Positions 6,344 to 32,000 of a stretch of DNA of 32,000 nucleotides are shown piece after piece; within the stretch, counting starts at the first letter, position 1; every line of letters begins with the position of its first letter. The notes under the pieces are model-generated. The model ran no database searches and had not been told where the DNA came from. It saw only the letters and a program-made list of their open reading frames with translations. The DNA is taken from NCBI GenBank assembly GCA_031292215.1, contig JARLHO010000148.1, positions 1 through 32,000 on the forward strand, given 5' to 3'. Both the position numbers and the translations under genes were made by a program. This DNA comes from Syntrophobacteraceae bacterium. Lineage in GTDB: Bacteria; Desulfobacterota; Syntrophobacteria; Syntrophobacterales; Syntrophobacteraceae.

Positions 6344-6359
6344 TCGTTGCTCCTGGTTT

Positions 6360-6423
6360 GTGAATAGTGAGTAGTGAATAGTGAATAGAAAAAGCTCCAC
6401 TCACCCACTCACCGCTTCACTGC
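6360..6423. repeat. GTGAA/TCAC heptad-rich inverted repeat (copy 2)
   Basis: The left arm is gtgaat-agtgagt-agtgaat-agtgaat-ag (four AGTGAAT-type heptads), followed by aaaaag, then the right arm ctccactcacccactcaccgcttcactgc. It shares the '...gtgaa(c/t)AGAAAAA...' junction with copy 1 at 1315-1392. The right arm overlaps the last codons and stop of mksB. Confidence 0.55.
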
Positions 6424-14284: not shown

Positions 14285-16555
14285 ATGAACCAGGATCACC
14301 TCGATTCCATTTCCCGTGAAATGGGTCTTAGGCCTTATCAGGTAAGCGCTACGGCGGCTCTTCTCGAAGAGGGCGCCACCGTGCCGTTTATCGCCAGGTA
14401 CCGCAAGGAAGCAACTGGAACCCTCGACGAGACCCTCGTTGCGGCGATTCGCGACCGGCTCGCCCAGTTGGATGTGCTCGAAAAACGAAGAAGCGCCGTC
14501 CTGAAATCCTTGCGCGAACAGGAAAAGCTAACCGATCGGTTGGAAGAGCGCATACTGCGGGCTGGAACTCTTACGGAAATCGAAGACATCTACCTGCCGT
14601 TTCGCCCCAAACGCCGCACGCGAGCGTCCATAGCCAGGGAAAAAGGGCTGGAGCCACTTGCGCTCGCCCTTTTCGAACAGGACCCCGCACGGGATCCGAT
14701 AGACCTTGCCCAAAGCTTTATAAGTCCGGAAAAGGAAGTAGCCTCGGAGGAAGACGCCCTCTGCGGGGCAAGGGACATCATCGCCGAATGGGTAAATGAA
14801 AACGGGGATTCCCGTTTGAAGCTGCGTTCGCTTTTTTTCACCAAAGGAATGCTGCGCTCCCGGGTCGTTCCCGGAAAAGAAGCCGAGGGGATGCAGTATC
14901 GAGACTACTTCGACAAGGAAGAGCCGATCGCTCGCGCCCCGTCTCACAGGGTGCTGGCCGTGCGAAGGGGAGAGCAGGAAGGTTTTCTTACGGTGCGCAT
15001 CGAACCTCCCGAAATGGAGGCCGTAAACATTCTCGAGGCCATTTTCGTAAAAAATGATTCGGCCTCCTCTGCCCAGGTCCGGGCCGCGGTCCGCGACAGC
15101 TATAAACGGCTGCTTTCGCCCTCTCTTGAAACGGAGATGAAAAACGAATCCAAACTCCGCGCCGATCGTGAAGCCATCCGGGTGTTTGCCGAAAATCTGC
15201 GCCATCTTTTGATGGCGCCGCCTCTTGGCTTTAAAAAAGTGATGGCGCTGGACCCGGGATTCCGCACCGGGTGCAAACTGGTTTGCCTGGACCCGCAGGG
15301 AAAGCTCGTCCATACAGAAACGATTTACCCACACCTTGGGGCAAAGGAGTCCGAGAAGGCCGGGGCGCGCATTCGCGCACTATCGCGGGAATTTTTAACC
15401 GAGGCCATCGCCATTGGAAACGGCACTGCCGGCCGGGAAACCGAGTCGTTTATCCGAAATCTGGGCCTTCCCCAAGAGATCCAGTTGATCATGGTCGATG
15501 AAAGCGGCGCTTCGATCTACTCTGCCTCAACTGTTGCGCGCGAGGAGTTTCCCGACTTCGATCTGACCGTTCGCGGGGCCGTATCGATAGGCAGGCGGCT
15601 AATCGATCCCCTGGCCGAGTTGGTCAAAATCGATCCCAAATCCATTGGAGTGGGACAGTACCAGCATGATGTGGATCAAACCGAGTTGAAAAAGGGGTTA
15701 GACGATGTCGTCGCCAGTTGTGTCAACGCGGTGGGAGTCGAGGTCAATTCGGCCAGCCCCCAGCTCCTCTCTTATATCTCGGGCCTTGGGCCTCAGCTTG
15801 CCGCAAATATCGTGTCCCACCGGGAAAAAAACGGGCCGTTTGGCAAAAGGGCGGAGTTAAAAAAAGTTACACGCCTTGGCCCCCGGGCCTTTGAACAATC
15901 GGCTGGTTTTTTGCGCATCTCCGATGGAAAAAACCCGCTGGATGCAAGCGCTGTCCACCCGGAATCCTACCCGATCGTCGAGAAAATGGCCACAGACCTT
16001 GGCTGTTCGGTTGCCGACCTGATACGGGAAGCCTCTTTCAGGGAAAAAATCGATCCCGCGCGGTATGTAACCGAAAAGGTCGGAATTCCCACCCTTGTCG
16101 ATATCTTGTCCGAGCTCGCAAAACCGGGAAGAGACCCCCGCAAATCCTTTGAGCCCTTCTCGTTTGCCGCGGGAGTGGAAAAACTGACCGACCTTGAGCG
16201 CGGCATGAAGCTGCCGGGAATTGTGACCAACGTGACCGCCTTCGGCGCCTTTGTCGACATCGGGGTTCACCGGGACGGCCTTGTCCACTTAAGCGAACTC
16301 TGCGATAGATTCGTAAGTGAGCCCCGCGAAGTGGTAAAGGTGCATCAAAAGGTAACGGTCACCATCCTCGAGGTGGACCTGGAAAGAGGGCGCGTATCGC
16401 TTTCCATGAAATCGGGAGCTGCCGAAACGGTCATGGCCGCGCCAAAACCCGAAAAGTCGGCGCCCGCAACCGGGCCGCAGCGCGCCAATCCGGTTGCCAA
16501 GCCAAAGACAGCCTTTAACAATCCTTTCGAAAACGCCTTTAAGAAACGGGATTGA
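14285..16555 (+). CDS. tex: Tex transcription accessory protein (YqgF/RuvC-like, HhH and S1 domains)
   Basis: 756 aa. The N-terminus ...QVSATAALLEEGATVPFIARYRKEATGTLDE is the Tex hallmark. The C-terminal S1 domain is GMKLPGIVTNVTAFGAFVDIGVHRDGLVHLSEL. AAGGAAG SD. Confidence 0.9.
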   Translation: MNQDHLDSISREMGLRPYQVSATAALLEEGATVPFIARYRKEATGTLDETLVAAIRDRLAQLDVLEKRRSAVLKSLREQEKLTDRLEERILRAGTLTEIEDIYLPFRPKRRTRASIAREKGLEPLALALFEQDPARDPIDLAQSFISPEKEVASEEDALCGARDIIAEWVNENGDSRLKLRSLFFTKGMLRSRVVPGKEAEGMQYRDYFDKEEPIARAPSHRVLAVRRGEQEGFLTVRIEPPEMEAVNILEAIFVKNDSASSAQVRAAVRDSYKRLLSPSLETEMKNESKLRADREAIRVFAENLRHLLMAPPLGFKKVMALDPGFRTGCKLVCLDPQGKLVHTETIYPHLGAKESEKAGARIRALSREFLTEAIAIGNGTAGRETESFIRNLGLPQEIQLIMVDESGASIYSASTVAREEFPDFDLTVRGAVSIGRRLIDPLAELVKIDPKSIGVGQYQHDVDQTELKKGLDDVVASCVNAVGVEVNSASPQLLSYISGLGPQLAANIVSHREKNGPFGKRAELKKVTRLGPRAFEQSAGFLRISDGKNPLDASAVHPESYPIVEKMATDLGCSVADLIREASFREKIDPARYVTEKVGIPTLVDILSELAKPGRDPRKSFEPFSFAAGVEKLTDLERGMKLPGIVTNVTAFGAFVDIGVHRDGLVHLSELCDRFVSEPREVVKVHQKVTVTILEVDLERGRVSLSMKSGAAETVMAAPKPEKSAPATGPQRANPVAKPKTAFNNPFENAFKKRD

Positions 16556-16577
16556 TCCAAAGCCCGAAGACTTTGCA

Positions 16578-18182
16578 ATGTTTTTGCTTCCGGCTCGCCT
16601 GGGTCGGGGCCACTGGCACAAGGGATTACAAGTGAGAAATATTTCCAATTCGCTGGCATTCAGGCTTCTTTGCCTCCTGCTGCTTGTAAGCGCTATTATC
16701 TTCATTTCCCTTACCTGGTTCATTGTACGGGCAGAGAAACGGCGCATTTCAGGGGAAGCCATACGCACCAACGAACTACTTCTGCGTTCCATGCGCCAGA
16801 GCATGTTGCTCAATCGCCAGAAGGATGTCGGCCACACGATAGATGCCTTGGGCAGCGGACCCGGAGTTTACGGAATAAGGATTTACGACAAAAACGGAAG
16901 GATCGCTTTCAGCGCGAAAAGGCAGGAAATAGGGCAAAAGGCCAACATGAAGGCCAAAGAGTGCATTGTATGCCATAGAGACGACAAACCGCTTGAAAAT
17001 ATTCCGAAAGCCGACCGGACTCGAAGTTTTGTCTCTCCGGACGGCTACCGGATACTCGGCGCTTTTGAAGCAATTCATAATGAACCCGCCTGCTCCGCGC
17101 CCGGATGCCACCCGCCTCCGTCCAGGCGGAAAATATTGGGCATGCTAGACTCCCAGTTTAACCTCGGAGGGGCGGGCCGCAATATTTTCAGCAGCCTCAA
17201 CCTCATGATCCTGTACTCCCTGGGCGCTATTTTGCTAATCGAGCTCTTTGCGGGACTTTTCATCATTCGCAACGTAAACATGCGCCTGGCAAAGCTCGCC
17301 GAAGGACCGCGCGAGGTCAAGTTGGGCAACCTGGATTTCAGCATTCAGATCGAAGGAAACGACGAGATAGCCGATCTGGCTCATTCGTTTAACAGCATGG
17401 TGGTAAGCCTCAAACGGGCCGAAGCTGAAAACAGGCAACTATCCCGCAGGGTGGTGCACAACGCGAAAATGGCTTCGATGGGTAAGCTCGCGGCCTCGGT
17501 GGCCCATGAAATCAACAACCCTCTTAGCGGCATCCTGGCCTACAGCCGGCTTATATCCCGCAAGATAAGCGAAGGACCCATGACGGAGGAAGACAGCAAG
17601 GAAGCCATGAAGCACTTCGAGGCGTGCATCGGCGAGATCAAGCGGTGCGGAAACATCGTCAGAAACCTGCTTCAGTTTTCCCGAAATTCCGAATCGGTCT
17701 TTGAAAAAGTTGACATACACAATATTATCGACAAAAGTCTTTTAATAACCAACCACCATTTCCAGATACATAACATAGAGACGATAACGGAGATGGAGGC
17801 GCGCGATCCGACGTTTTTCGGAAATGCAAACCAAATAGAGCAGGTACTGATCGCCCTGTTCATGAACGCTGTGGAAGCCATGCCCGGGGGGGGCGCCCTT
17901 ACCGTTTCGACCAGGGACGCCGCAGACCGCAACGCGCTGCTGGTGAGCGTAGCCGATAACGGCAAAGGAATCCCGCCTGAAATCCGGTCGAACATATTCG
18001 AGCCGTTTTTCACGACCAAGCAGGGGGGACATAGCGTTGGGATGGGCCTGTCGGTCGTCTACGGCATCATGCTTGGACACCGCGGGCAAATCGAGGTCGA
18101 ATCCGAACCGGAGCGCGGCACTACCTTCCTGCTCACATTCCCTAGAGAAATAGAGCCGAGCGGCGAGAACGCGCCAATATAG
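16578..18182 (+). CDS. Sensor histidine kinase (2 TM, periplasmic domain with CXXCH and CX4CH, HAMP, HisKA, HATPase)
   Basis: H-box [14 protein letters not shown]-box [10 protein letters not shown]-boxes DNGKGIP and GMGLSVV. HAMP follows TM2. The periplasmic segment carries CIVCH (nt 16962-16976) and CSAPGCH (nt 17091-17111). The start is uncertain (ATG 16578 or GTG 16633). The tracked ORF start at 16494 overlaps tex. Confidence 0.85.
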
Positions 18183-18237
18183 GGCGGGGCCGTCGTTTCC
18201 TGCTGTGGATATTTATTTGACTGGAGATCGGGAGAAG

Positions 18238-19584
18238 ATGACAGAACAGGTATCATTGCTCATTGTCGACGATGAACCGTCGGTCCGCGATTCCCTCATG
18301 CACTGGTTTCTGCAGGAGGGCTACCGTGTGGAGACCGCCGCCGAAGCGATGGAAGCCCTGGGGAGGATGCGCGATTCAAGTTTCGACATCATTCTTTTGG
18401 ACATCAAGATGCCCGGAATGGACGGAATCGAGCTTCAACGGCGGTTGAAGGAAATAGACAGCCAACTGGCCATCGTAATCATGACCGCCTATGCGTCGGT
18501 TGACACCGCCATTCAGGCGCTCAAACAGGGCGCCTACGACTACATAACCAAGCCGGTCGACCCCGACGATCTGAGCAGACTCATCCGCAACGCCGCCGTA
18601 CAGCGCCGGCTCATGCGCGAAAATCTCACCCTGAAAGAAGAAATCCGCTCCCTTGTTTCCACCAACCAGATCGTCGGAGAAAGCCACCAGATGCTGGAGG
18701 TGCTAAAGACCATCCAAACGGTGGCGCAAAGCGACGTCACCGTGATGATCCAGGGGGCTTCCGGCACGGGCAAGGAACTTGTCGCCAGGGCAATCCACTT
18801 CAACAGCAGGCGCAAGTATTTCCCGCTGATCACCCTGAATTGCGGCGCCATGACCGATACGCTGGTTGAATCCGAGCTTTTCGGCCACGAACGTGGAGCG
18901 TTCACCGGCGCGCAGTACAGGCGCAAAGGCAAACTGGAGCTCGCCCACAAAGGCGCCCTTTTCCTCGATGAAATAGGCAACATCGGCCCGAAGACCCAGA
19001 TGGATTTGCTGCGCGTAATCGAAACCAAGCGCTTCACCCGGGTTGGGGGAAACGAGGTCGTCCAGGCGGACTTTCGCATCATCTCGGCCACCAACAAGAA
19101 CCTCGAAGACGCGGTAAAGGAAGGAACGTTTAGAGAAGACCTCTACTACCGTTTGAATGTCTTCAATATCCAGTTGCCGTCTCTAAAGGAGCGGACCTCG
19201 GACATCCCGCTGCTTGTAAATCATTTCGTGGCAAAGTTCGCGACAGCCATGAACAAACCCTTCACGGGAGTCGACGCAGGGGCGATGGAGCTTCTCAAAC
19301 AAAAGAGCTGGCCGGGCAATGTGCGGGAACTCCAAAACGCCATGGAAAGGGCGGTGGTCCTTGGGAAGCCTCCCCTTATAACCGCCCCGGACCTTGCCGG
19401 CCTCGTCGAGCAAAGCCCCCTTTCGGAGGCCGACGAGGTGCTGCCGCTGGCCCAGATCGAAAAGCGCCACATTCAATTAGCGCTGGACAAGAGCGGGGGC
19501 AACGTGTCGCTTGCCGCTCAGTTGCTCCAGGTCGACAGGGCTACTGTCTACAACAAAATCAAAAAATACGGCCTGCTGTATTGA
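18238..19584 (+). CDS. Sigma-54-dependent response regulator (NtrC/AtoC/ZraR family)
   Basis: Receiver domain (LLIVDDEP...LLDIKMPGMDG), AAA+ domain with GASGTGKE Walker A and the sigma-54 contact loop ESELFGHERGAFTGA, and a C-terminal Fis-type HTH (NVSLAAQLLQVDRATVYNKIKKYGL). Start ATG 18238 (MTEQ) follows GGGAGAAG. Confidence 0.9.
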   Translation: MTEQVSLLIVDDEPSVRDSLMHWFLQEGYRVETAAEAMEALGRMRDSSFDIILLDIKMPGMDGIELQRRLKEIDSQLAIVIMTAYASVDTAIQALKQGAYDYITKPVDPDDLSRLIRNAAVQRRLMRENLTLKEEIRSLVSTNQIVGESHQMLEVLKTIQTVAQSDVTVMIQGASGTGKELVARAIHFNSRRKYFPLITLNCGAMTDTLVESELFGHERGAFTGAQYRRKGKLELAHKGALFLDEIGNIGPKTQMDLLRVIETKRFTRVGGNEVVQADFRIISATNKNLEDAVKEGTFREDLYYRLNVFNIQLPSLKERTSDIPLLVNHFVAKFATAMNKPFTGVDAGAMELLKQKSWPGNVRELQNAMERAVVLGKPPLITAPDLAGLVEQSPLSEADEVLPLAQIEKRHIQLALDKSGGNVSLAAQLLQVDRATVYNKIKKYGLLY

Positions 19585-20125: not shown

Positions 20126-20202
20126 CGGGCCGGCTGGGTTGTGGATCGGAGCGAACAGGGAACTTCGCAAAAACCCTCGAACCAACTCCGGTGGCATTCT
20201 AT

Positions 20203-20317
20203 TCTAATGCAGTTTTTCTGTTAAATCAAGTCGTTAGGATTTATTCCGATCAAACCCCAATAAGTCGTCGCCTCTGCGACTCTGCGGCAGCTTTCTTAAT
20301 TAGAACAAATTTAGCGT
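20203..20317 (+). repeat. Direct repeat unit A (115 bp)
   Basis: tctaatgcagtttttctgttaaatcaagtcgttagga...gatcaaaccccaataagtcgtcgcctctgcg[actctgc]g..ctttcttaattagaacaaatttagcgt. It aligns with unit B at 20942-21136 in the same orientation. Confidence 0.75.
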
Positions 20318-20526
20318 CCCTCCCCTCCTTCTCGGAGCAAAAGAGGCTGATTCGGCGCTGATACACCGAGCCGGCCACCGATCTGAGGGGCGGCTGCCAA
20401 CACATCCCGGGGGCCGGCAGCGAAGGGGAAAGAGGTGAGACATTTACCCCCCCTGTGCTGAAAAAACAGCAAAAAAACAAAGCCCGTCTTTTATTAACCA
20501 ACCGATTTCACGTGACATATTCGATT

Positions 20527-20606
20527 CACAGCGCCCAAATAACAGCCATGGAACAGCATGGGTAACAGCAGAGTTAACAGCACAATAACAGCAGTAATTT
20601 ACAGCA
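20527..20606 (+). repeat. Array 1: seven (A)ACAGC(A) motifs at 11-14 bp phasing
   Basis: ACAGC starts at 20528, 20542, 20553, 20565, 20577, 20588 and 20601 (intervals 14, 11, 12, 12, 11, 13). A given pentamer is expected about once per kb per strand. The array ends 5 nt before the SD GGAGGAG (20611-20617). Confidence 0.8.
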
Positions 20607-20627
20607 GATAGGAGGAGACGCAAATGA

Positions 20628-20638
20628 GGGGGGGGGGG
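20628..20638 (+). repeat. G11 homopolymer immediately after an SD-preceded ATG
   Basis: ggaggagacgcaaATGa-g11-ctt, with ATG at 20624. As written the ORF stops after 18 codons (TAG 20678-20680). Confidence 0.9.
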
Positions 20639-20787
20639 CTTAAAAGCGATTCAGTATTCAGTTTTAAAAGAACGTCGTAGCGAGCAGGGGAAAAGATATT
20701 CGCGGCGGGGCGATACCCCTGGTGCATCGGAGCCCTTTGGCCCGTTAATCCGCAAGGGATATAGCACGAAACTGATTAGCTCTGCAA

Positions 20788-20862
20788 AACGGCAACGAGA
20801 AACGGAAACGAGGAGCGGCAAATGAAACGGCGACCAGAAACGGCAAAAGTCCATGCGGCAAC
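20788..20862 (+). repeat. Array 2: six (A/G)(A/G)CGG(C/A)(A/G)A motifs at 12-15 bp phasing
   Basis: aacggcaa 20788, aacggaaa 20801, agcggcaa 20814, aacggcga 20826, aacggcaa 20839, tgcggcaa 20854 (intervals 13, 13, 12, 13, 15). The consensus AACGGCA differs from array 1 (AACAGCA) by one base. The SD GAGGAG (20810-20815) and ATG 20822 are embedded in it. Confidence 0.75.
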
Positions 20863-20941
20863 TGAGCAGGGATGATGGGAAGATGATGAAACGCAAGCCA
20901 TACAAAAGATTGAGGGGGTAAGAGGGCAGAGGTTATCCTGG

Positions 20942-21136
20942 TCTAATGCAGTCCTTCTGCTTAATCCAGCAGTCAGGGACCATCTGGAAACCCCGGCCGT
21001 GGGGGCGGTGAGCACAAGCATCACCATGTCCACCAAGAAATTTCCGGATGGACAGACTATTTGGGACTGGTCCCGGTCAAAGCCCGATAAGTCGTCGCCT
21101 CTGCGGTATTCTTTCTTTTTAGAACAAATTTACCGT
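20942..21136 (+). repeat. Direct repeat unit B (195 bp; the unit A sequence plus a ~96 bp internal insertion and a 7-bp deletion)
   Basis: 20942-20979 (tctaatgcagtccttctgcttaatccagcagtcaggga) matches the A 5' part. 21076-21136 (gtcaaagcccgataagtcgtcgcctctgcggtattctttctttttagaacaaatttaccgt) matches the A 3' part. Confidence 0.75.
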
Positions 21137-21548
21137 GAAAACCAACTCAGGAACCTTTGACAGGATGGACGGCAACCATGTATAGTAGCAGGGTGGTCGT
21201 TAGGCAACGTTTTCGCGTCGCCAGGTTAAATGGGTCTCCAATCGAACCGATTTCAATTTCTATTCTCTCTTTCTGGCTTTCCTCTTCAGGACCGATTTGC
21301 GACGCCGGCGGCGTCCATTTTGCCACGCGCCGGATTGTCGCCGCGCTGTAAAGATCCATTTCTACCGATTCGGCAAGATATCTGCCGGCGTGGTGTATTC
21401 TGGTCAATGGGAATTTATCCGGCAAGGAACTAACGGCTCTTTAGCCTGGCACACTGTACATGCTGACGGAGATCTGTGGACGGAGGGCGGGAAAAGACTT
21501 CCGGTGCGGATATGGTCTCCAATAGCCCAAAAATAAGGAGATGGACCG

Positions 21549-21896
21549 ATGTTGAAAAAAGCAATGGTATGCGGGGCGATTGTATGTTTGATGGCCGGTT
21601 ATGGATACGGCAGCGCGAAGGGGGCCGATTTTGCAAAAGGTAAAACGCTCTTTACTTCCCGGTGCGTTCTTTGCCACGGCGCCGAAGGCAAAGGCAACGG
21701 GCCCGCGGCCATGACGCTCAGCCCCAAGCCGGCCGATTTCACCAGCAAGACTTTTTGGCAGACCCCCGATATTGATCGGACAATGACCGATTTTATAAAA
21801 AACGGCAAGGGGCCCATGCCGGCTTTCCCCGATCTGTCGGCCGGCGATATTCAAGACGTCGTCCAGTATATCGAGCACGCTTTCAAACCCAAATGA
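21549..21896 (+). CDS. Periplasmic monohaem class-I-type cytochrome c
   Basis: 115 aa with a signal peptide, a single CVLCH, GKGNGPAA, and the distal Met region GKGPMPAF. AAGGAG lies 8 nt upstream. Confidence 0.8.
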   Translation: MLKKAMVCGAIVCLMAGYGYGSAKGADFAKGKTLFTSRCVLCHGAEGKGNGPAAMTLSPKPADFTSKTFWQTPDIDRTMTDFIKNGKGPMPAFPDLSAGDIQDVVQYIEHAFKPK

Positions 21897-21910
21897 ACGT
21901 TTTCCGGGCT

Positions 21911-21939
21911 GGAGGCGGCCATTCCTTTTGCCCGCCTCC
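21911..21939 (+). terminator. Hairpin after the monohaem cytochrome gene (possible attenuator or partial terminator)
   Basis: ggaggcgg (21911-21918) / ccgcctcc (21932-21939) with a 13-nt loop. It is followed by a C-run rather than a U-run. Confidence 0.3.
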
Positions 21940-22092
21940 CCCCCGCTTAGCCTACCCTGAAGCCGCCTTTTGCCGGTTTTTAAGGACGCCCCCGCCCCCC
22001 CCGGGAGGAGGTGAAGAGCTCGCGCAATGCGTGCCGCGCTAAAGCCCCGAGAGTCCGGTTACGTGCAGTTTTTCCCTTGGAGGAGGAGAGAA

Positions 22093-23466
22093 ATGGGCAT
22101 CAAACGGTTTAGCAAACTCATCTTCTTATTGGCCGTGGCTGGATTTCTTGGCGTCCTGACGGCAAGGCAAGCCCGGGCGGTGCCAAGTTTTGCGCGCCAG
22201 ACGGGCCAAGCCTGTTCCACATGCCATACTATGTTTCCCGAACTGACGCCATTCGGACGCACCTTTAAATTAACGGGCTACGTATTGAATAAGGACGGCG
22301 CCTCCCATCCGAGCGCGCCACCGGTGGCGGCCATGGTCCAACTCTCTCTCACGCACACCCGGCAGGCGCAGGCGCCCGGCTCTTTGCCGGATAACGGCTG
22401 GTCTCTTCACGCGCTTAGCTCCGAAAACGATGTGGCCGGCACGCCTCAGGCGGCCAGCCTGTTCTATGGAGGCCAGATATACGGCCATTGGGGCGCGCTC
22501 ATCCAGGGAACTTACTCAAACACCGATAACCGCTCATTTTTGGACATGTCGGATATTCGCTATGCGAACTCCACCTCGTTTTGCGGCAAGAACCTCATTT
22601 ACGGATTTACTTTCAATAACAACCCGACATCCGAAGACGTCTGGAACTCGACGCCGGCGTGGAGCTATCCGTATGGCTTTTCAGACGTCGGGCCAACTCC
22701 TGTTACGCCGGTCGCGGCCCCATTGATCTTTTCTCTATCCTCCTTGGTGGGAGGCGCGGGCGCTTACGTTTACTGGAACAACTGGCTCTACGTCGAGACC
22801 GCCGTCTACCGCACGTCCCTCGACGGGATCACCGCTCCATTCGGAGCGGGAGGTCATCCGCTCGGCGCTTATACCGACGGAGGCATCCCTTATTGGCGCC
22901 TGGCGCTCACACACCAATACGGCCCTCATTCGTTTGAAATCGGCACCTACGGGTTGGCGGCAAGAGTCTATTCCAGTTACCCCAGCCCACCTGCCGACAA
23001 TTACCGGGACGTGGCCTTCGATGCGCAATATCAGTATATTTTCGGCAATCAATCCTTTTCGGCGCAGACAACCTGGGTGCATGAAGACCAGGACCTTACC
23101 GCCAGCGTCAACTCAGGAATTCCTAGCAACCTCACCAACTATCTGGACACTTTCAAGATCAACGGCAACTACTATTACCGAACGAAACATTGCGGGCAAC
23201 TCGGAGGGACGCTTTCGTATTTTTCGACAACCGGAAGCGACGACGCCTCGCTCTACAGCACTGCCGCCTCCCCGAACGGCAATCCCAACAGTCACGGCGA
23301 AATACTCGAACTGGACTACATGCCGCCCTGGCACGACTACGGACCGGGCGGATTGGGTTTCGCCAAGTTCACGCTGCAGTATGTCATCTTCAACGAGTTT
23401 AACGGCAGCAGTAGCGGAGCATCCGCCAACAACACTCTCTATCTTCTCGCCTGGTTCATGTTCTGA
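22093..23466 (+). CDS. Fused monohaem cytochrome / outer-membrane beta-barrel protein (Cyc2-like architecture)
   Basis: 457 aa from ATG 22093 (GGAGGAGGAG SD). Signal peptide ...LTARQARA. It then reads VPSFARQTGQACSTCHTMFPELTPFGRTFKLTGY (one CXXCH), followed by ~400 aa of alternating aromatic/polar strands rich in Y/G/N/S/T, ending ...LYLLAWFMF (terminal Phe, an OMP signature). Confidence 0.7.
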   Translation: MGIKRFSKLIFLLAVAGFLGVLTARQARAVPSFARQTGQACSTCHTMFPELTPFGRTFKLTGYVLNKDGASHPSAPPVAAMVQLSLTHTRQAQAPGSLPDNGWSLHALSSENDVAGTPQAASLFYGGQIYGHWGALIQGTYSNTDNRSFLDMSDIRYANSTSFCGKNLIYGFTFNNNPTSEDVWNSTPAWSYPYGFSDVGPTPVTPVAAPLIFSLSSLVGGAGAYVYWNNWLYVETAVYRTSLDGITAPFGAGGHPLGAYTDGGIPYWRLALTHQYGPHSFEIGTYGLAARVYSSYPSPPADNYRDVAFDAQYQYIFGNQSFSAQTTWVHEDQDLTASVNSGIPSNLTNYLDTFKINGNYYYRTKHCGQLGGTLSYFSTTGSDDASLYSTAASPNGNPNSHGEILELDYMPPWHDYGPGGLGFAKFTLQYVIFNEFNGSSSGASANNTLYLLAWFMF

Positions 23467-23593
23467 TGGGGCGCGGGAGGGGGACTGTTTCCTATTGGCC
23501 GGGAGGGCGGCCGGGGAGTCAAGGGGGCAACATTGGCGCAGTGACTCCGAAAAAAGAGTTGCGGGCGATAACTTTTCAAGTCAAGGCTAAGAT

Positions 23594-24331
23594 GTGAACG
23601 AGCATAAATGGATGTGGGCCGTATGTTGTACGGTTTTCCTCGTGCTAAGCGGTTCGCCGGCGCATGCCCAACAGGGGCGCATTGCTTGCATTACCTGCCA
23701 TGAAGCTTTGGGCGGATCATTGGCCAAGCCTATCACCGACTGGAGGGGCTCCATTCATTACCAGCACGGAATTACCTGCGACCGCTGCCACGGCGGCAAC
23801 GCCAAGGTAGAGGTGGGCAACGTGCTGCAACTCTCCGGCCCCCAGTTTGCGGCCATACAATCCGGGGCCATGTCGAAGGCAAACGGCTTTGTCGGCAAAC
23901 CCTCGGGCAAGCAACTGTTCGCTATGTGCGCAAAGTGCCATCCCGCTTCGGTGGGCAGGTACGCGGGCAGCGTCATGGGCATCGCCTATCTCCAAAAAAA
24001 GGGTGGGCCTTCCTGCATCGCTTGCCACCAACCCCATCGCAACGTCATCCCCGAGGTCCCCCAAGTCTGTTCGAGGTGCCATAAGGATACTACCGGATTC
24101 ACGCAGATCGACCCGATGAACGTTACGGATGCGTCCATAACCCAGCTTTCCAATATCCGCATCCAACTGGCCCGGGAGAAGACTCAGGGCGCCAGACCGT
24201 CGCTGGCCCCACGGTTTGCGGGAGAAATTGGTTCCTTCCAGGTAGGGTTGCTGGCATTCGGGGCGATCATTTTTCTTTTCCTGATCGGCTATGTGGTTTA
24301 TGCAATTTTTGAGAAGGGGGATGAAAAATGA
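23594..24331 (+). CDS. Pentahaem c-type cytochrome with a C-terminal membrane anchor
   Basis: Five CXXCH motifs: CITCH, CDRCH, CAKCH, CIACH, CSRCH. N-terminal signal, and a C-terminal TM helix VGLLAFGAIIFLFLIGYVVYAIF. The start is GTG 23594 or ATG 23612. Confidence 0.85.
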   Translation: MNEHKWMWAVCCTVFLVLSGSPAHAQQGRIACITCHEALGGSLAKPITDWRGSIHYQHGITCDRCHGGNAKVEVGNVLQLSGPQFAAIQSGAMSKANGFVGKPSGKQLFAMCAKCHPASVGRYAGSVMGIAYLQKKGGPSCIACHQPHRNVIPEVPQVCSRCHKDTTGFTQIDPMNVTDASITQLSNIRIQLAREKTQGARPSLAPRFAGEIGSFQVGLLAFGAIIFLFLIGYVVYAIFEKGDEK

Positions 24332-24591
24332 GTTTCGAGGTCCTTCGGGAAAAGAAGCCCTCCTGTTCGACGATCTCCATGGTCCTGGTCGTTTTTCTGT
24401 CGGCGCTTCTTTTCGGCATGGCGGCGGCTTTCGCCTACTTGCTGTTATCCGGGATGGGCAATGACTATCAACTCGGCGCCCTGTTGGCGCTCGAGTTCTT
24501 TGTGGCCGGCGTGCTGCTCGTTTTTTACGCGAAAAATTTTTCCTCGTTTCGAGAGGTCTCCGAGGAGCGCGATGAGGGGGTGTTATGGTAG
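24328..24591 (+). CDS. Small 2-TM membrane protein, translationally coupled on both sides
   Basis: 87 aa with two hydrophobic helices (ISMVLVVFLSALLFGMAAAFAYLLL; LGALLALEFFVAGVLLVFY). Its ATG overlaps the upstream stop (ATGA), and its end overlaps the Rieske start by 7 nt. Confidence 0.55.
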   Translation: MSFEVLREKKPSCSTISMVLVVFLSALLFGMAAAFAYLLLSGMGNDYQLGALLALEFFVAGVLLVFYAKNFSSFREVSEERDEGVLW

Positions 24592-25196
24592 AGACGAACT
24601 CCGAGGGCAAGGAGGGGAAGGTAACGCGCAGGCAATTTGCCCGAGGCTTTCTCCTGGCCGCCGTAGCAGGGGCTTTCGGCTCTCTTTTGTCGCTTCTCAA
24701 AGTGTTGTCGCCCCCGGCAAGCAAGGGCGGCGGCTATGTGGCCACCGTGGCGTTGGGGGACCTTCTGGTCTACGCCAAGGGCAGCAGGCAGGGAAGTTTG
24801 TTAAAGGCTTCGGATTTCCAGGTCGGGGACGCAGTCCTTGCTTATCCTCAGGGCAAAACCGGCAACGAGGCCAATCTCGTTCAACTCATTCGCATGAAGG
24901 AGAAGGAGTTCAAGCCGCCGACCCGCCTGGAGCTAACCGACCAGGGGTTTGTAGCCTACAGCGCCATCTGCACTCATCTCGGCTGCACGGTCTCGTGGAT
25001 GAAAAACGAAAAGGATCCCGGGGCCTCTTACACCGAATGTTTCTGTCATAACAGCATCTTCAATCCGGCGCGGGGGGCCAGGGTCATCGGAGGGCCCGCA
25101 CCGATCCCGCTGGCCCAGATCGGGGTCAAGGTATCCAAGGACGGAACCCTTGTTTTTACCAGCGGCTTTTCCGGCCCTGTCGGCCCGCAGGTTTGA
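24585..25196 (+). CDS. Rieske [2Fe-2S] subunit of a cytochrome bc-type complex
   Basis: Tat-like RRQFARGFLLAAVAGAFG, then CTHLGCTVSW and CFCHNSIF (CxHxGC...CxCH). Confidence 0.9.
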   Translation: MVETNSEGKEGKVTRRQFARGFLLAAVAGAFGSLLSLLKVLSPPASKGGGYVATVALGDLLVYAKGSRQGSLLKASDFQVGDAVLAYPQGKTGNEANLVQLIRMKEKEFKPPTRLELTDQGFVAYSAICTHLGCTVSWMKNEKDPGASYTECFCHNSIFNPARGARVIGGPAPIPLAQIGVKVSKDGTLVFTSGFSGPVGPQV

Positions 25197-25213
25197 CGTC
25201 GGAGGAAACGGCG

Positions 25214-26473
25214 ATGATTTCTAAATGGTTTGATGAACGGCTGGAGCTGAAAAAATTCAAGGAAAAATTCCTGACCAAAGCCTTTCCGACGCACCCGACG
25301 TTTCTTTTCGGAGAGATAGCGCTTTTTTCCTTTATAACGCTCGTGATCACCGGGATTTTTCTTGGCTTTCTCTACGAACCTTCGATCGATAAGGTGTCGC
25401 TTTTCGGCGCCATGGTTCCGGCCGCCTATGCGAGCGTGGTCAGGATCGACCTTTTGCCGCTGGGCATGATCATCCGGCGCATCCATCACTGGTCGGCCAT
25501 GATCATGATCGCCGCAATTGTGACCCATCTTGGGCGAATTTATTTCACATCGGCATACCGCAAGCCGCGGGAAATCAATTGGCTGATAGGCCTCGCCCTG
25601 CTCGCGGTAACCCTCGGGGCGGCCCTTACCGGCTATCTTCTGCCCTACAGCCAATTTTCGGTAACCGCCACCTCCATCGCCTACTATATTTCGAAGTCGG
25701 TCCCATGGATCGGGGGGTGGCTATCACGGCTTCTTTTCGCCGGGGAATTCCCGGCCGCAGGGACTGTCCCAAGGTTTTTCTTCCTGCACGTTATGCTGGT
25801 TCCCCTCGCGCTCCTGGGGCTGATCGGGCTGCACCTGCTGGTCCTGGTAAAGCACAAGCACACCGAACCTGCCGCCAACAGGAAACGGACAGACGCCCGG
25901 GGGGGGCGCAGGCTGATCGGGATCCCGGTCTGGCCGGAACAGAGCTTCATTAGCGTTTCACTCTTTTTTTTCCTGCTGTCCGTGGTGGTCCTTATGGCCA
26001 CCTATATCCCGTTAAACCCTATCGAAGCGTACGGCCCGCCTTCGCCGGCGACTCCGGTCATGCGGCCCGACTGGTATTTTCTCCCCATATACGGTTTTCT
26101 GAAGTTGATTCCAGGCAACCTCTCATTTTCCATCGCCGGGGGGAAATTCACCCCGGAGGCAATCGGCGGGGTCCTTTTCCCCGGCCTGCTGGCTCTGATC
26201 CTGGTTGCGATTCCGTTTCTCGACCGGGTGAGCACGCCGCGCAACTATATTGAAAATCCCCTCCACCGCCCTGTCATGACGTCTTTGGGCATTGCCGGCG
26301 GAGCATTTCTTTTCATGACGACCCTATCCGGATACATCGATGTTCTCCACATCGCCCCCTCGTCGATGGCGATATACGTCCTGGTTGTGACGGCTGCGGC
26401 CTGGGGGATCTCCTACCTGCTGCTGCGTCTTTACTGTCGAGCAGGAAAGAAAGGCGACCATGTCAAGACTTGA
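25214..26473 (+). CDS. Cytochrome b (fused b6 + subunit-IV-like, ~419 aa)
   Basis: His pairs in RRIHHWSAMIMIAAIVTHLGRIY and FFFLHVMLVPLALLGLIGLHLL. Qo-site motif PDWYFLPIYGFLK. GGAGGA lies 7 nt before ATG 25214. Confidence 0.9.
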   Translation: MISKWFDERLELKKFKEKFLTKAFPTHPTFLFGEIALFSFITLVITGIFLGFLYEPSIDKVSLFGAMVPAAYASVVRIDLLPLGMIIRRIHHWSAMIMIAAIVTHLGRIYFTSAYRKPREINWLIGLALLAVTLGAALTGYLLPYSQFSVTATSIAYYISKSVPWIGGWLSRLLFAGEFPAAGTVPRFFFLHVMLVPLALLGLIGLHLLVLVKHKHTEPAANRKRTDARGGRRLIGIPVWPEQSFISVSLFFFLLSVVVLMATYIPLNPIEAYGPPSPATPVMRPDWYFLPIYGFLKLIPGNLSFSIAGGKFTPEAIGGVLFPGLLALILVAIPFLDRVSTPRNYIENPLHRPVMTSLGIAGGAFLFMTTLSGYIDVLHIAPSSMAIYVLVVTAAAWGISYLLLRLYCRAGKKGDHVKT

Positions 26474-27215
26474 GCAGGTCCTGGGCTGCTTTATCGTGTT
26501 GTGCGGGGCGTTGCTTTTCGCTCACTCCGCCATGTCCGCCTCCAATCCGGCGCAGCGAAATTCCTGCGTCCAATGCCATTCCAAACTTCCAGCGAGCAGT
26601 TTTTACGGTGTTAAATCACACAGTTGGACAGGTTCGGTCCATCAGATGCACGGCGTAACGTGCGACAAGTGCCACGGAGGTAATCCCGCGGCCGCCCAAG
26701 AAAACCAGGCACATATCGGCATGCTTGGCTCCAGCGATCCGCACAGCACGATCTATTTCAAAAACATCCCCGCGACCTGCGGCAAATGCCACGGGGCCGA
26801 ATTCTACAAATTCACCCAGAGTGTCCATTACCAAATGCTCGAATCGACGGGCAAGGGTCCCGAATGCGTCACCTGTCACGGTTCCATGGTGACCAAGGTT
26901 TTGAGGCCCGATGACATGGTCGCCGTGTGCGCAAGGTGCCACAATGAAAGAATGGCCATTGCGCCATATGTGCCGCAGAAGGCCAAAGCGGTCCTGTTGC
27001 TGCTTGGGGAGAGCAAGGCCCTGCTGGCCGACCAGGAGCGTCTCCATCCCGCTCCGAGGAGCGCCGGGACGGCCCAGTCCCTGGACGAGGCAGGGATAGC
27101 GCTGCACAATGCCAAACTGGACTGGCACAAATTCGACCTGGACGCCATTACAAAGTACCTGCTGGAATTTTATGACACCGTCGAAAAATTGCCCCGGGCC
27201 CCTGCCAGCCATTAA
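26460..27215 (+). CDS. Pentahaem c-type cytochrome (paralogue of 23594-24331, no C-terminal anchor)
   Basis: CVQCH, CDKCH, CGKCH, CVTCH, CARCH. It shares GS(I/V)Hxx HG(I/V)TCD(R/K)CHGGN and the motif order with the first pentahaem. It overlaps the cytochrome b end by 14 nt. Confidence 0.85.
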   Translation: MSRLEQVLGCFIVLCGALLFAHSAMSASNPAQRNSCVQCHSKLPASSFYGVKSHSWTGSVHQMHGVTCDKCHGGNPAAAQENQAHIGMLGSSDPHSTIYFKNIPATCGKCHGAEFYKFTQSVHYQMLESTGKGPECVTCHGSMVTKVLRPDDMVAVCARCHNERMAIAPYVPQKAKAVLLLLGESKALLADQERLHPAPRSAGTAQSLDEAGIALHNAKLDWHKFDLDAITKYLLEFYDTVEKLPRAPASH

Positions 27216-31803: not shown

Positions 31804-32000
31804 TCTTATCTCCACGCTGACTTAGTAAGTATATCAACGGGCTATAGAAATACTGGTCGTTTTCGGACGGCAAAACGATTTTTATCTCGGCCGGCCACTC
31901 GCCAGTGGAATACAACCGCTGTATTGCATTAAAGATTAATGCGACGGGTTCGGCTTCGCTCCACCAAGCCCGCGCGCACCGCAGCCTGGAGCCGGTGCAG

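What the first reader, a model, noticed from the sequence alone, without database searches (positions are those of the whole stretch)
22093..23466. Single-haem N-terminal module fused to a putative beta-barrel (Cyc2-like) in a non-classical iron-oxidiser background
Seen in sequence: the signal peptide ends ARQARA. Then VPSFARQTGQACSTCHTMFPELTPFGRTFKLTGY carries the only CXXCH. About 400 aa follow with amphipathic strand-like stretches (YGGQIYGHWGALIQGTYS, GAGAYVYWNNWLYVETAVYRT, FAKFTLQYVIFNEF), and the C-terminus is LAWFMF.

Established knowledge: a C-terminal aromatic residue and alternating strands are outer-membrane-protein hallmarks. Cyc2 proteins consist of one haem plus a porin.

Inference: I recall a 'FARxxGxxCxxCH' opening as typical of Cyc2-like sequences, but I cannot verify that here. 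The genomic context (sigma-54 regulator, FlgM partner protein, MksBEF, anaerobe-type ferredoxins) is not that of the textbook aerobic iron oxidisers. That makes the physiological role an open question.
Basis: partly seen in the sequence, partly recalled or inferred. Interest (0 to 1): 0.7.

Follow-up and report, generated by a model that had tools for sequence, protein, structure and literature searches.

The report
Cyc2-type outer-membrane cytochrome-porin operon
The gene encodes a one-haem cytochrome fused to a 16-strand outer-membrane pore, a clear member of the known Cyc2 iron-oxidase family, and in this uncultured anaerobe it sits in an operon with a soluble cytochrome c and a Rieske/cytochrome b complex, which looks like a complete electron path between dissolved iron outside the cell and the membrane quinone pool.

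Summary
Window 22093-23466 (+) encodes a 457-aa protein with a signal peptide, then AVPSFARQT-GQA-CSTCH-TMF-PEL, then a C-terminal ...LAWFMF. It is identical to a hypothetical protein of a Syntrophobacteraceae MAG.

It meets every published Cyc2 sequence and structure criterion I could test:
- one CXXCH
- the AXPXFAR[Q/K][T/Y] motif
- the PXL motif
- length of at least 365 aa
- a 16-strand barrel (AlphaFold pTM 0.79) that best matches OmpT, OprP and OprO.

The haem site is invariant in 63/63 aligned homologues and present once in 81/81 homologues from other genomes. The family is large (4864 clusters at 50% identity, at least 571 GTDB species) and the closest relatives are all from uncultured organisms.

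The gene is the second of an apparent seven-gene operon: cytochrome c, Cyc2-like, pentahaem c, 87-aa membrane protein, Rieske, cytochrome b, pentahaem c. All five relatives of 64-78% identity whose contigs I inspected keep this linkage, one of them after inversion of the bc module.

Cyc2 homologues in iron reducers and sulfate reducers are already reported. I therefore file it as a new member of a known family with a noteworthy operon. The direction of electron flow is unresolved. Cluster 1/2/3 placement could not be done.

The parts
22093..23466 (+). Cyc2-family fused monohaem cytochrome c / 16-strand outer-membrane porin (457 aa plus stop)
   Evidence: ORF and translation. Shine-Dalgarno sequence before the ATG. 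100% identical to an NCBI hypothetical protein, P4L43_18160, of a Syntrophobacteraceae MAG. No Pfam or NCBIfam model matches. Motifs match Keffer 2021. AlphaFold barrel. Foldseek hits to porins.
22093..22179 (+). Signal peptide (residues 1-29, MGIKRFSKLIFLLAVAGFLGVLTARQARA; A-R-A cleavage site)
   Evidence: Read from the sequence: basic N-region, hydrophobic core, AXA site. Modelled as helix 3-23. No SignalP tool was available, so this rests on inspection only.
22177..22245 (+). Cyc2 signature and haem c attachment site: A29-VPSFARQT-GQA-C41STCH45-TMF-P49EL51 (CXXCH at nt 22213-22227)
   Evidence: Sequence. Invariant or near-invariant columns in 63 homologues. 56 of 81 homologues carry the strict full motif, the other 25 fail it (those I read in the printed regions keep the FxRQT core with one or a few substitutions), and 81 of 81 have one CXXCH. 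Motif definition from PMC8406198.
22324..23463 (+). Beta-barrel porin domain, residues 78-457, 16 long strands, ending in the OMP-type C-terminal signal LYLLAWFMF
   Evidence: DSSP strands 78-89, 113-130, 133-142, 147-163, 166-175, 219-228, 232-241, 265-276, 279-293, 301-317, 320-334, 348-364, 368-381, 400-410, 423-436 and 448-456. Foldseek: OmpT 8e-9, OprP 2.9e-8, OprO about 1e-7. L449, L452, W454 and F457 are conserved in at least 90% of sequences.
21549..21896 (+). Periplasmic class I monohaem cytochrome c (115 aa; CVLCH, GPMPAF), the likely redox partner of the Cyc2-like protein
   Evidence: Pfam Cytochrome_CBB3 3.9e-14 and Cytochrom_C 3.6e-12. The best NCBIfam hit is cytochrome 579, but at 39 bits against a cut-off of 280. 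A homologous cytochrome c clusters with the window gene in 22 of 81 related loci, mostly immediately upstream on the same strand, and is also upstream in L087, L088, L089, L110, L112 and L113.
23594..24331 (+). Pentahaem cytochrome c with a C-terminal membrane anchor (245 aa, 5 CXXCH)
   Evidence: Five CXXCH motifs. Cytochrome_C7 and related Pfam hits. Hydrophobic C-terminal segment VGLLAFGAIIFLFLIGYVVYAIF. Paralogue of 26460-27215 (26% identity, E 3e-18). Syntenic in L087, L089, L110, L111 and L088.
24328..24591 (+). 87-aa membrane protein, overlapping both neighbours (translationally coupled)
   Evidence: ORF. Only a weak DUF7318 hit, E 6e-4, below cut-off. An 87-aa gene is at the same position in L087, L088, L089, L110 and L111.
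24585..25196 (+). Rieske [2Fe-2S] subunit (CTHLGC ... CFCHNS)
   Evidence: Pfam Rieske 2e-6. NCBIfam QcrA-type 1.6e-26, below cut-off. Sequence.
25193..26473 (+). Cytochrome b (fused b6 plus subunit IV type, 426 aa)
   Evidence: Pfam Cytochrom_B_N_2 8.8e-50, Cytochrome_B 4.1e-27 and Cytochrom_B_C 4.8e-7. NCBIfam QcrB-type 8.3e-90, below cut-off.
26460..27215 (+). Second pentahaem cytochrome c (251 aa, 5 CXXCH), probably the c-type subunit of the Rieske/cytochrome b complex
   Evidence: Five CXXCH motifs. Pfam Cytochrome_C7 5.8e-10. Overlaps the end of cytochrome b by 14 nt. This position is conserved in relatives.
21157..21186 (+). Sigma-70-like promoter candidate (TTGACA-18-TATAGT, 11 of 12), about 360 nt upstream of the cytochrome c gene
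   Evidence: Consensus scan. The number of sites in the region is no higher than in shuffles, so this is a weak lead only. No convincing sigma-54 promoter was found.
16494..19584 (+). Possible regulators: sensor histidine kinase (16494-18182) and sigma-54-dependent response regulator (18205-19584)
   Evidence: Pfam HAMP/HisKA/HATPase_c, and Response_reg/Sigma54_activat/HTH_8. The same HK, RR and M54 peptidase precede the operon in L087, and an HK-RR pair lies near it in L088. The link to the operon is inferred from synteny only.

Best explanation
The gene encodes a Cyc2-family outer-membrane protein. After signal-peptide cleavage, a small N-terminal domain carries one covalently bound haem c at C41/C44/H45. 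This domain is fused to a 16-strand porin barrel.

Both termini of such a barrel face the periplasm. The haem domain is therefore expected at the periplasmic mouth, and only small dissolved species that enter the pore can reach it. It exchanges single electrons between such a species, most likely Fe2+, and the class I cytochrome c encoded immediately upstream. That cytochrome in turn connects to the Rieske/cytochrome b/pentahaem-cytochrome complex encoded immediately downstream, and so to the menaquinone pool. The seven genes at 21549-27215 would then form one self-contained path from the cell exterior to the quinone pool.

I commit to the classical direction as slightly more likely: Fe(II) is oxidised at the pore, and electrons pass to cytochrome c and from there to any periplasmic or cytochrome-c-dependent reductase. 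Part of the flow is driven 'uphill' through the reversed Rieske/cytochrome b complex into the quinone pool. This is the scheme proposed for Leptospirillum (Cyt572, Cyt579, bc complex) and for the A. ferrooxidans petI branch.

What is shown:
- family membership by motif, fold and homology
- conserved linkage to cytochrome c and, in close relatives, to the bc module

What is inferred:
- haem incorporation
- outer-membrane location and haem-domain position
- the substrate
- the protein-protein contacts
- the direction of flow

My sub-probabilities are: Cyc2-family cytochrome-porin 0.9; functional coupling to the operon's cytochrome c and bc complex 0.65; inward direction (Fe(II) oxidation) about 0.45, against about 0.35-0.4 for outward flow.
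For: Family identity:
- The motif AVPSFARQT-xxx-CSTCH-xxx-PEL matches the Cyc2-defining consensus in PMC8406198.
- The haem site and motif are invariant in 63 homologues, and a single CXXCH is present in 81 of 81.
- The AlphaFold model has 16 strands and pTM 0.79.
- The best PDB matches are 16-strand porins including OprP and OprO, as reported for Cyc2PV-1.
- There is full-length homology to Ralstonia megaplasmid proteins (43.7% identity, E 4e-87). [quoted passage not shown]

Partner cytochrome:
- A homologous class I cytochrome c clusters with the window gene in 22 of 81 related loci, mostly directly upstream, and is upstream in six further close relatives.
- The proteobacterial relatives instead carry a dihaem c4 (Cyc1-like) gene directly downstream in 21 loci, and HiPIP-Cyc2like-cytochrome c in Caballeronia. 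These mirror known iron-oxidation gene sets.

The bc linkage:
- The same pentahaem / 87-aa / Rieske / cytochrome b / pentahaem module follows the gene in L087 (78% identity), L089 (73%, different flanks), L110 (66%, after a second cytochrome c-cyc2 pair) and L111 (64%).
- It lies inverted next to the gene in L088 (65%).
- Rieske plus cytochrome b genes also lie nearby in 4 of the 81 non-redundant loci (L001, L006, L025, L045; L007 is a duplicate of L001).
- Genes overlap by 4-14 nt from 24328 to 26473.

Direction:
- All three biochemically tested family members oxidise Fe(II), and Cyc2PV-1 has Em +208 mV.
- The partner cytochrome has the His/Met class I pattern, and its best though sub-threshold family match is Leptospirillum cytochrome 579.
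Against: - No experiment exists on this clade.
- The haem domain (residues 24-60) is modelled with pLDDT 46-61 and without haem, so its plug position is not shown.
- No terminal oxidase or nitrate/nitrite reductase is in the window, so there is no visible sink for Fe(II)-derived electrons.
- The host family is known (general knowledge) as anaerobic sulfate reducers and syntrophs. Fe(II) cannot be oxidised with sulfate.
- Pushing electrons uphill into menaquinone costs energy and has no obvious benefit for a heterotroph.
- Co-encoding Cyc2 with a quinol-oxidising complex rather than an oxidase differs from the A. ferrooxidans rus operon.
- Family members occur in Fe(III) reducers: Geobacter and Rhodoferax and an Acidiphilium cryptum JF-5 plasmid.
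- In relatives of 59% identity or less, the bc module is replaced by a DUF2231-cytochrome c fusion. The bc linkage is therefore specific to a small clade.
Confidence: 0.5

Rival explanations
1. Same hardware, opposite direction. Menaquinol is oxidised by the Rieske/cytochrome b/pentahaem complex running forward and conserving energy. Electrons pass to the soluble cytochrome c and leave the cell through the Cyc2-type haem-porin to a small dissolved oxidant such as chelated Fe(III). This would be a self-contained extracellular respiration route for an anaerobe.
For: - The operon contains a quinol-oxidising complex, a periplasmic carrier and an outer-membrane conduit, but no oxidase.
- The linkage is kept in five close relatives, once after inversion.
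- The host lineage and most close relatives are from anaerobic groups: Desulfobacterota, Thermodesulfovibrionales and Aminicenantes.
- FeGenie classes cluster 3 Cyc2 as 'possible iron reduction' and finds it in Geobacter and Rhodoferax ferrireducens.
- A homologue is on a plasmid of the Fe(III) reducer Acidiphilium cryptum JF-5.
- From general redox chemistry, a haem near +200 mV can reduce Fe(III)-citrate or Fe3+ at low pH.
- For a propionate-oxidising syntroph, a sink for menaquinol electrons would be valuable (inference).
Against: - No family member has been shown to reduce iron. All three tested ones oxidise Fe(II).
- The pore of the related phosphate porins is narrow, and Keffer et al. 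argue that only dissolved Fe2+ can reach the haem. Bulky Fe(III) chelates may not enter.
- A class I His/Met cytochrome c is typical of high-potential chains that feed oxidases.
Confidence: 0.35
2. The conduit handles a dissolved redox species other than iron, for example Mn(II) or small quinone-type shuttles. Alternatively it serves metal or oxidative-stress defence rather than energy metabolism.
For: - Cyc2 has been proposed as a Mn(II)-oxidation component in Ca. Manganitrophaceae (PMC9040806).
- Keffer et al. state that Cyc2 may have additional functions.
- P-type ATPases lie within 6 kb in 11 related loci, and universal stress proteins in 7.
Against: - There is no direct evidence for any non-iron substrate in the family.
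- The P-type ATPase and Usp neighbours are not in this window and are common genes.
- Linkage to a Rieske/cytochrome b complex points to respiratory electron flow.
Confidence: 0.1
3. It is an ordinary diffusion porin whose CXXCH is not used, so it is not a cytochrome.
For: The barrel resembles general and phosphate porins, and no Pfam or NCBIfam cytochrome model matches the protein.
Against: - The CXXCH and flanking residues are invariant across 63 and 81 homologues while the barrel diverges.
- c-type cytochrome genes are the most consistent neighbours.
- Members of the motif-defined family bind haem experimentally.
Confidence: 0.03

Closest known systems
Cyc2 fused cytochrome-porins (A. ferrooxidans Cyc2, Mariprofundus Cyc2PV-1; Keffer et al. 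2021, McAllister et al. 2020)
   Same: Signal peptide, a single CXXCH, the AXPXFAR[Q/K][T/Y] and PXL motifs at the published spacing, about 450 aa, a predicted 16-strand barrel with OprP/OprO-like fold, and an adjacent c-type cytochrome gene.
   Different: The host is an uncultured Syntrophobacteraceae MAG, not an aerobic iron oxidiser. The partner is a monohaem cytochrome c upstream rather than the dihaem Cyc1 downstream. The gene is operon-linked to a Rieske/cytochrome b complex rather than to an aa3 oxidase and rusticyanin. Direct sequence comparison with the reference proteins could not be made.
Leptospirillum Cyt572 / Cyt579 / bc complex iron-oxidation chain (Cyc2 cluster 3)
   Same: The overall logic is the same: an outer-membrane monohaem cytochrome-porin, a small soluble cytochrome c and a Rieske/cytochrome b complex. 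The SSN study reports Desulfobacterota among the nearest neighbours of the Leptospirillum bc1. The window cytochrome c has cytochrome 579 as its best NCBIfam match.
   Different: The cytochrome 579 match is far below the family cut-off (39 against 280 bits). All components here are in one operon. The bc complex carries two pentahaem cytochromes. No cbb3 oxidase is in view, and the host is not an acidophilic aerobe.
Cyc2 (cluster 3) homologues reported in Geobacter, Rhodoferax and sulfate-reducing Ca. Acidulodesulfobacterales
   Same: These are Cyc2-type genes in anaerobic iron- or sulfate-reducing Desulfobacterota with unresolved function. Relatives of the window protein include a Geobacteraceae MAG at 46% identity.
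   Different: I could not show that the window protein is orthologous to those particular genes. A search seeded with the Geobacteraceae MAG protein returned only uncultured sequences.
MtrAB / MtoAB / PioAB porin-cytochrome complexes
   Same: They are also outer-membrane electron conduits made of a porin plus c-type haem. An Mto-like cluster lies beside the cyc2-like gene in L088.
   Different: Those use a 26-strand porin and a separate decahaem cytochrome that spans the membrane. Here there is a fused single haem and 16 strands.
Phosphate porins OprP/OprO and general porins OmpT/OmpF
   Same: 16-strand barrel fold. Foldseek E 8e-9 to 1e-5, with TM-score 0.5-0.6 normalised to the target.
   Different: Only 9-13% sequence identity, and none has an N-terminal haem domain or the Cyc2 motif.

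Membership tests
Cyc2 fused cytochrome-porin family (criteria of Keffer 2021 / FeGenie) | N-terminal signal peptide | tested here: met
   Residues 1-29 have a basic N-region, a hydrophobic core and an A-R-A site, and are modelled as helix 3-23. This rests on inspection only because no SignalP tool was available.
Cyc2 fused cytochrome-porin family (criteria of Keffer 2021 / FeGenie) | Exactly one CXXCH haem c-binding motif near the N-terminus | tested here: met
   CSTCH at residues 41-45, the only one. Invariant in 63 of 63 homologues and present once in 81 of 81.
Cyc2 fused cytochrome-porin family (criteria of Keffer 2021 / FeGenie) | AXPXFAR[Q/K][T/Y] (PXFAR[Q/K][T/Y]) motif upstream of CXXCH | tested here: met
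   A29-V-P-S-F-A-R-Q-T37, with five residues between R35 and C41. Definition. The strict motif is present in 56 of 81 homologues; the other 25 fail it, and those I read in the printed regions keep the FxRQT core with one or a few substitutions.
Cyc2 fused cytochrome-porin family (criteria of Keffer 2021 / FeGenie) | PXL motif four residues downstream of CXXCH | tested here: met
   P49-E50-L51, where P49 is the fourth residue after H45. Invariant in alignment A1.
Cyc2 fused cytochrome-porin family (criteria of Keffer 2021 / FeGenie) | Length of at least 365 aa (long enough to include a porin) | tested here: met
   457 aa.
Cyc2 fused cytochrome-porin family (criteria of Keffer 2021 / FeGenie) | C-terminal beta-barrel porin of about 16 strands with structural similarity to OprP/OprO | tested here: met
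   16 long strands between residues 78 and 456, pTM 0.79. OprP 2o4v at E 2.9e-8 and OprO 4rjw/4rjx at about 1e-7 are among the top six PDB hits.
Cyc2 fused cytochrome-porin family (criteria of Keffer 2021 / FeGenie) | Sequence similarity (blastp E <= 1e-5 or FeGenie HMM above cut-off) to a reference Cyc2, and placement in cluster 1, 2 or 3 | not testable with these tools
   No reference Cyc2 sequence or FeGenie HMM was reachable. Pfam and NCBIfam have no Cyc2 model that matches, and the supplement search found none. Indirect support: E 4e-87 to Ralstonia proteins, a genus from which Keffer et al. removed 'several sequences' as highly sampled when screening their Cyc2 set.
Cyc2 fused cytochrome-porin family (criteria of Keffer 2021 / FeGenie) | Covalent haem, outer-membrane location and Fe(II) oxidase activity | not testable with these tools
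   Requires expression, a haem stain, fractionation and an Fe(II) oxidation assay.
Leptospirillum cytochrome 579 (for the upstream cytochrome c, 21549-21896) | NCBIfam NF033864 equivalog score of at least 280 bits | tested here: not met
   39.2 bits, E 6e-10. It is the best-scoring family but far below the cut-off. The protein is a class I cytochrome c, not a cytochrome 579 orthologue.
MtrB/PioB/MtoB-type porin-cytochrome complexes | 26-strand porin with a separate multihaem (decahaem) cytochrome inserted | tested here: not met
   16 strands and one fused haem. No MtrB_PioB Pfam hit.

The most novel reading that the evidence does not exclude
In an uncultured Syntrophobacteraceae clade, a Cyc2-type cytochrome-porin has been recruited into a seven-gene operon with a cytochrome c and a pentahaem-bearing Rieske/cytochrome b complex. 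The operon works as an outward, energy-conserving route: menaquinol, bc complex, cytochrome c, Cyc2, then a dissolved extracellular oxidant. The 'iron oxidase' family would then act as a terminal reductase or electron-disposal valve in anaerobic syntrophs. This would give a concrete function to the many unexplained Cyc2 homologues found in anaerobes.
Probability: 0.35. Interest if true: 0.7.

Novelty: new member of a known kind. Interest (0 to 1): 0.4.

Why it matters
Cyc2 is the most widely used marker gene for microbial iron oxidation. A large share of its homologues, especially outside cluster 1, sit in organisms that are not known iron oxidisers, and their function is explicitly called uncertain.

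This locus adds a clean example from a lineage of anaerobic syntrophs and sulfate reducers. Here the gene is physically tied to a cytochrome c and a quinol-linked Rieske/cytochrome b complex, and the linkage survives rearrangement in related genomes. That gives a compact seven-gene unit that can be expressed and tested.

Such a test could decide whether Cyc2 homologues in anaerobes take electrons from Fe(II) or deliver them to extracellular acceptors. The answer affects how metagenomic 'iron oxidation potential' is read in peat, soil and sediment surveys.

The protein itself is not a new kind of molecule.

Tried and rejected
- Pfam and NCBIfam scans of the target gave no family.
- A sequence search of PDB gave only a non-significant dihaem cytochrome hit (3u99, E 1.5). 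No family member appears to have a solved structure.
- The genome-contig scan returned only MAGs in the best 80 loci. No classical iron oxidiser was among them, so no reference Cyc2 was obtained for a tree.
- A second homology search, seeded with the Geobacteraceae MAG homologue to reach Geobacter isolates, again returned only uncultured sequences. Cluster 1/2/3 placement was abandoned.
- Searching the Keffer supplements for motif strings found nothing.
- A full-text search for the strings FARQT and similar only hit German 'Infarkt' papers and was wasted.
- The metagenome-contig scan gave 20 loci, mostly distant or short, and I did not analyse them further.
- The sigma-54 promoter consensus near the operon gave 11 matches against 13.5 expected, with none upstream of the operon. 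The idea of an obvious sigma-54 promoter was dropped.
- Rfam had no match in the window, including the long upstream spacer.
- The GC profile shows no compositional island at the operon.
- A haem-containing sensor kinase is not a conserved neighbour. Only L025 has one.
Full report
**Observation.**
Window 22093-23466 (+) is an intact ORF of 457 codons. Its ATG is preceded by GGAGGAGGAGAGAA. A longer in-frame start at 22027 exists, but homologues of exactly 457 aa align from residue 1 of the shorter form. The protein has exactly one CXXCH, C41-S-T-C-H45. It is 100% identical to an NCBI entry, 'MAG: hypothetical protein P4L43_18160 [Syntrophobacteraceae bacterium]'. The GC profile shows no compositional break at the locus.

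**What the protein is.**
No Pfam or NCBIfam model matches it, and no PDB sequence does. The literature defines the Cyc2 family by the following features (Keffer et al. 2021, PMC8406198; FeGenie, PMC7005843):
- a signal peptide
- a single CXXCH
- an AXPXFAR[Q/K][T/Y] motif upstream of it
- a PXL motif four residues downstream
- a length of at least 365 aa
- a predicted 16-strand porin resembling OprP/OprO.

The window protein reads A29-VPSFARQT37-GQA-C41STCH45-TMF-P49EL51. This is a perfect match, with FAR ending five residues before the first Cys and P49 the fourth residue after His45. In an alignment of 63 homologues (48-81% identity), P31, F33, Q36, C41, C44, H45, P49, E50 and L51 are invariant, and the C-terminal L449, L452, W454 and F457 are at least 90% conserved. 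In 81 non-redundant homologues taken from other genomes, every one has exactly one CXXCH, 56 carry the strict full motif, and 63 end in Phe. The other 25 fail the strict motif; those I read in the printed regions keep the FxRQT core with one or a few substitutions.

**Structure.**
An AlphaFold2 model built on the 63-sequence alignment has mean pLDDT 79.6 and pTM 0.79, with 16 long strands between residues 78 and 456. Foldseek against PDB gives 16-strand porins as best matches: V. cholerae OmpT at 8e-9, OprP 2o4v at 2.9e-8, and OprO 4rjw/4rjx at about 1e-7. OprP and OprO are the templates reported for Cyc2PV-1. The haem domain (residues 24-60) is modelled with low confidence (pLDDT 46-61) and without haem. 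Whether it plugs the barrel therefore cannot be read from the model.

**How big the family is and who carries it.**
A profile search of 1.84 billion cluster representatives finds 4864 clusters at E <= 1e-3 and 701 at E <= 1e-30, nearly all about 450 aa long. The best 80 loci are all MAGs from these groups:
- Desulfobacterota, including Syntrophobacteraceae, Desulfomonilia, Desulfobaccales and Geobacteraceae
- Thermodesulfovibrionales
- Aminicenantes
- Bacteroidota and Ignavibacteriales
- Acidobacteriota
- Gemmatimonadota
- Rokubacteria
- Binatia
- many Gamma-, Beta- and Alphaproteobacteria.

In the plasmid collection, full-length homologues occur on Ralstonia megaplasmids (43.7% identity, E 4e-87), on Caballeronia and Paraburkholderia replicons, and on Acidiphilium cryptum JF-5 pACRY03 (38.5%, E 4e-55). 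[quoted passage not shown] This links the window protein to that set indirectly.

I could not obtain a reference Cyc2 (PV-1, A. ferrooxidans or Cyt572) or the FeGenie HMMs, so cluster 1/2/3 placement was not done. A search seeded with the Geobacteraceae MAG homologue returned no sequence that a source attributes to a cultured isolate.

**The surroundings.**
The genes run on the + strand as follows:

| Coordinates | Product |
|---|---|
| 21549-21896 | class I monohaem cytochrome c |
| 22093-23466 | the Cyc2-like gene |
| 23594-24331 | pentahaem cytochrome c with a C-terminal membrane anchor |
| 24328-24591 | 87-aa membrane protein |
| 24585-25196 | Rieske protein |
| 25193-26473 | cytochrome b (fused b6 / subunit IV type) |
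| 26460-27215 | second, paralogous pentahaem cytochrome c |

The last five genes overlap by 4-14 nt, and no convincing terminator separates the first three.

Upstream lie a sensor kinase, a sigma-54 response regulator and an M54 peptidase. A 1.4-kb spacer follows.

**Is the linkage conserved?**
Among the 81 non-redundant loci from other genomes, a homologue of the upstream cytochrome c clusters with the window gene in 22 loci, mostly directly upstream on the same strand. These are essentially the anaerobe-type relatives of at least about 44% identity. The proteobacterial relatives instead have a dihaem c4-type cytochrome directly downstream in 21 loci, the arrangement of cyc2-cyc1 in Acidithiobacillus. 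Caballeronia has HiPIP-Cyc2like-cytochrome c. A c-type cytochrome partner is thus the recurrent feature of both groups.

The Rieske/cytochrome b module is rarer across the family: 4 of the 81 non-redundant loci (L001, L006, L025, L045; L007 duplicates L001). It is kept in all five closest relatives inspected:

| Locus | Identity | Arrangement |
|---|---|---|
| L087 | 78% | fully syntenic, including the kinase, regulator and peptidase |
| L089 | 73% | same seven genes in unrelated flanks |
| L110 | 66% | second cytochrome c-cyc2 pair, then the module |
| L111 | 64% | same module downstream |
| L088 | 65% | five-gene module inverted and divergent from cytochrome c-cyc2 |

Retention through a change of flanks, duplication and inversion is good evidence of functional coupling. 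Relatives of 59% identity or less carry a DUF2231-cytochrome c fusion downstream instead.

**Mechanism.**
The shown facts support an outer-membrane, single-haem electron conduit that talks to a periplasmic cytochrome c. In this clade it is further wired to a quinone-reactive Rieske/cytochrome b complex whose c-type subunits are pentahaem proteins. With one haem inside a 16-strand pore, only small dissolved species can be substrates, as argued for Cyc2.

The direction of flow is not determined by any data here.

For Fe(II) oxidation:
- All three biochemically tested family members oxidise Fe(II), and Cyc2PV-1 has Em +208 mV.
- The partner is a His/Met class I cytochrome whose best match, though far below cut-off, is Leptospirillum cytochrome 579.
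- The whole set mirrors the Leptospirillum chain of Cyt572, Cyt579 and a bc complex.

For the opposite direction:
- No oxidase is in the operon.
- The operon is a complete quinol-to-exterior path.
- The host lineage is anaerobic.
- Family members occur in iron reducers.

I rate inward flow at about 0.45, outward flow at 0.35-0.4, and other substrates at about 0.1.

**Comparison with what is known, and novelty.**
By every criterion I could test, the protein is a member of the Cyc2 family. The only defining test left open is direct scoring against reference sequences or HMMs.

Cyc2 homologues in non-classical hosts are well documented:
- Expressed Leptospirillum-type Cyc2 has been found in sulfate-reducing Ca. 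Acidulodesulfobacterales.
- 44 papers in the library mention both Cyc2 and Desulfobacterota.

The finding is therefore a new member of a known kind. The conserved cytochrome c / Cyc2 / pentahaem-Rieske-cytochrome b operon in a Syntrophobacteraceae-related clade is the part I did not find described. It makes the open question about these homologues experimentally approachable. Interest is moderate, at 0.4.

Noticed in passing
window 16494-18182 (+): The sensor histidine kinase has a predicted periplasmic domain between two hydrophobic segments. That domain carries CIVCH (a CXXCH) and CSAPGCH (a CX4CH), so it may be a haem-c-binding redox sensor. It is paired with the sigma-54 response regulator at 18205-19584. 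The kinase-regulator-M54 peptidase trio precedes the same operon in L087. Among kinases near other homologues, only L025 has a CXXCH.
   Followed up: partly
window 20126-21548: There is an unusually long (1.4 kb) non-coding spacer between the M54 peptidase gene and the operon. It holds two copies of a roughly 120-200-nt repeat, at 20196-20317 and 20935-21136, 74-82% identical in three blocks. The equivalent spacer in the closest relative, L087, is only 354 nt and lacks the repeat. There is no Rfam match. The nature of the repeat is unknown.
   Followed up: partly
L110 6455-10865: A second cytochrome c-cyc2-like gene pair (116 aa plus 460 aa, then 116 aa plus 461 aa, all without a Pfam model for the larger genes) lies directly upstream of the pentahaem/Rieske/cytochrome b module in a 66%-identity relative.
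   Followed up: no
L088 10600-15490: A cluster resembling mtoA-mtoB-mtoD-cymA lies 1-6 kb from the cyc2-like gene. It comprises a multihaem cytochrome, an MtrB_PioB porin, a small cytochrome c and a NapC/NirT cytochrome. Two different outer-membrane electron conduits therefore sit side by side.
   Followed up: no
L112 8423-9172, L113 5452-6201 and 8413-9162, L014 10442-11197 and others: Relatives of 59% identity or less have, instead of the bc module, a membrane protein that fuses a DUF2231 domain to a monohaem cytochrome c. It lies directly downstream of the cyc2-like gene in 11 loci. Whether this is a quinone-reactive alternative partner is unknown.
   Followed up: no
L031, L034, L037 and 18 other proteobacterial loci; L086 3942-6959: Proteobacterial homologues carry a dihaem c4-type cytochrome immediately downstream (21 loci). 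A Caballeronia plasmid has HiPIP-Cyc2like-cytochrome c. This resembles classical iron-oxidation gene sets, in organisms not known as iron oxidisers.
   Followed up: partly
L085 (Acidiphilium cryptum JF-5 plasmid pACRY03) 4968-6335; also CP084173.1: A homologue (38.5% identity) sits on a conjugative plasmid next to a transposase and a c-type cytochrome gene. A plasmid record labelled Acidithiobacillus ferrooxidans gives the same identity and E-value. The gene appears to be mobile among acidophiles.
   Followed up: partly
L009, L013, L015, L017, L022, L053, L061, L063, L077, L079, L084: P-type ATPases lie within 6 kb of the cyc2-like gene in 11 related loci, some with heavy-metal-type N-terminal motifs. 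This may be chance or may reflect a link to metal stress.
   Followed up: no
L003 3792-4223 (Thermodesulfovibrionales chromosome OY970295.1): A MamS_MamX-domain protein and a Metal_resist protein lie a few kb upstream of a cytochrome c-cyc2-like pair, after a kinase and sigma-54 regulator. The same 3.59-Mb contig length is listed for two homologues, P0066 and P0116, suggesting two paralogues on one contig.
   Followed up: no
window 5243-12781 (-) and 29756-31815 (-): These look like ordinary housekeeping genes unrelated to the finding. One is a MukF/MukE(MksE)/MukB-like condensin operon with an extra 385-aa gene that has no Pfam hit. The other is an Ada/AlkA fusion with an Ogt methyltransferase.
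   Followed up: no
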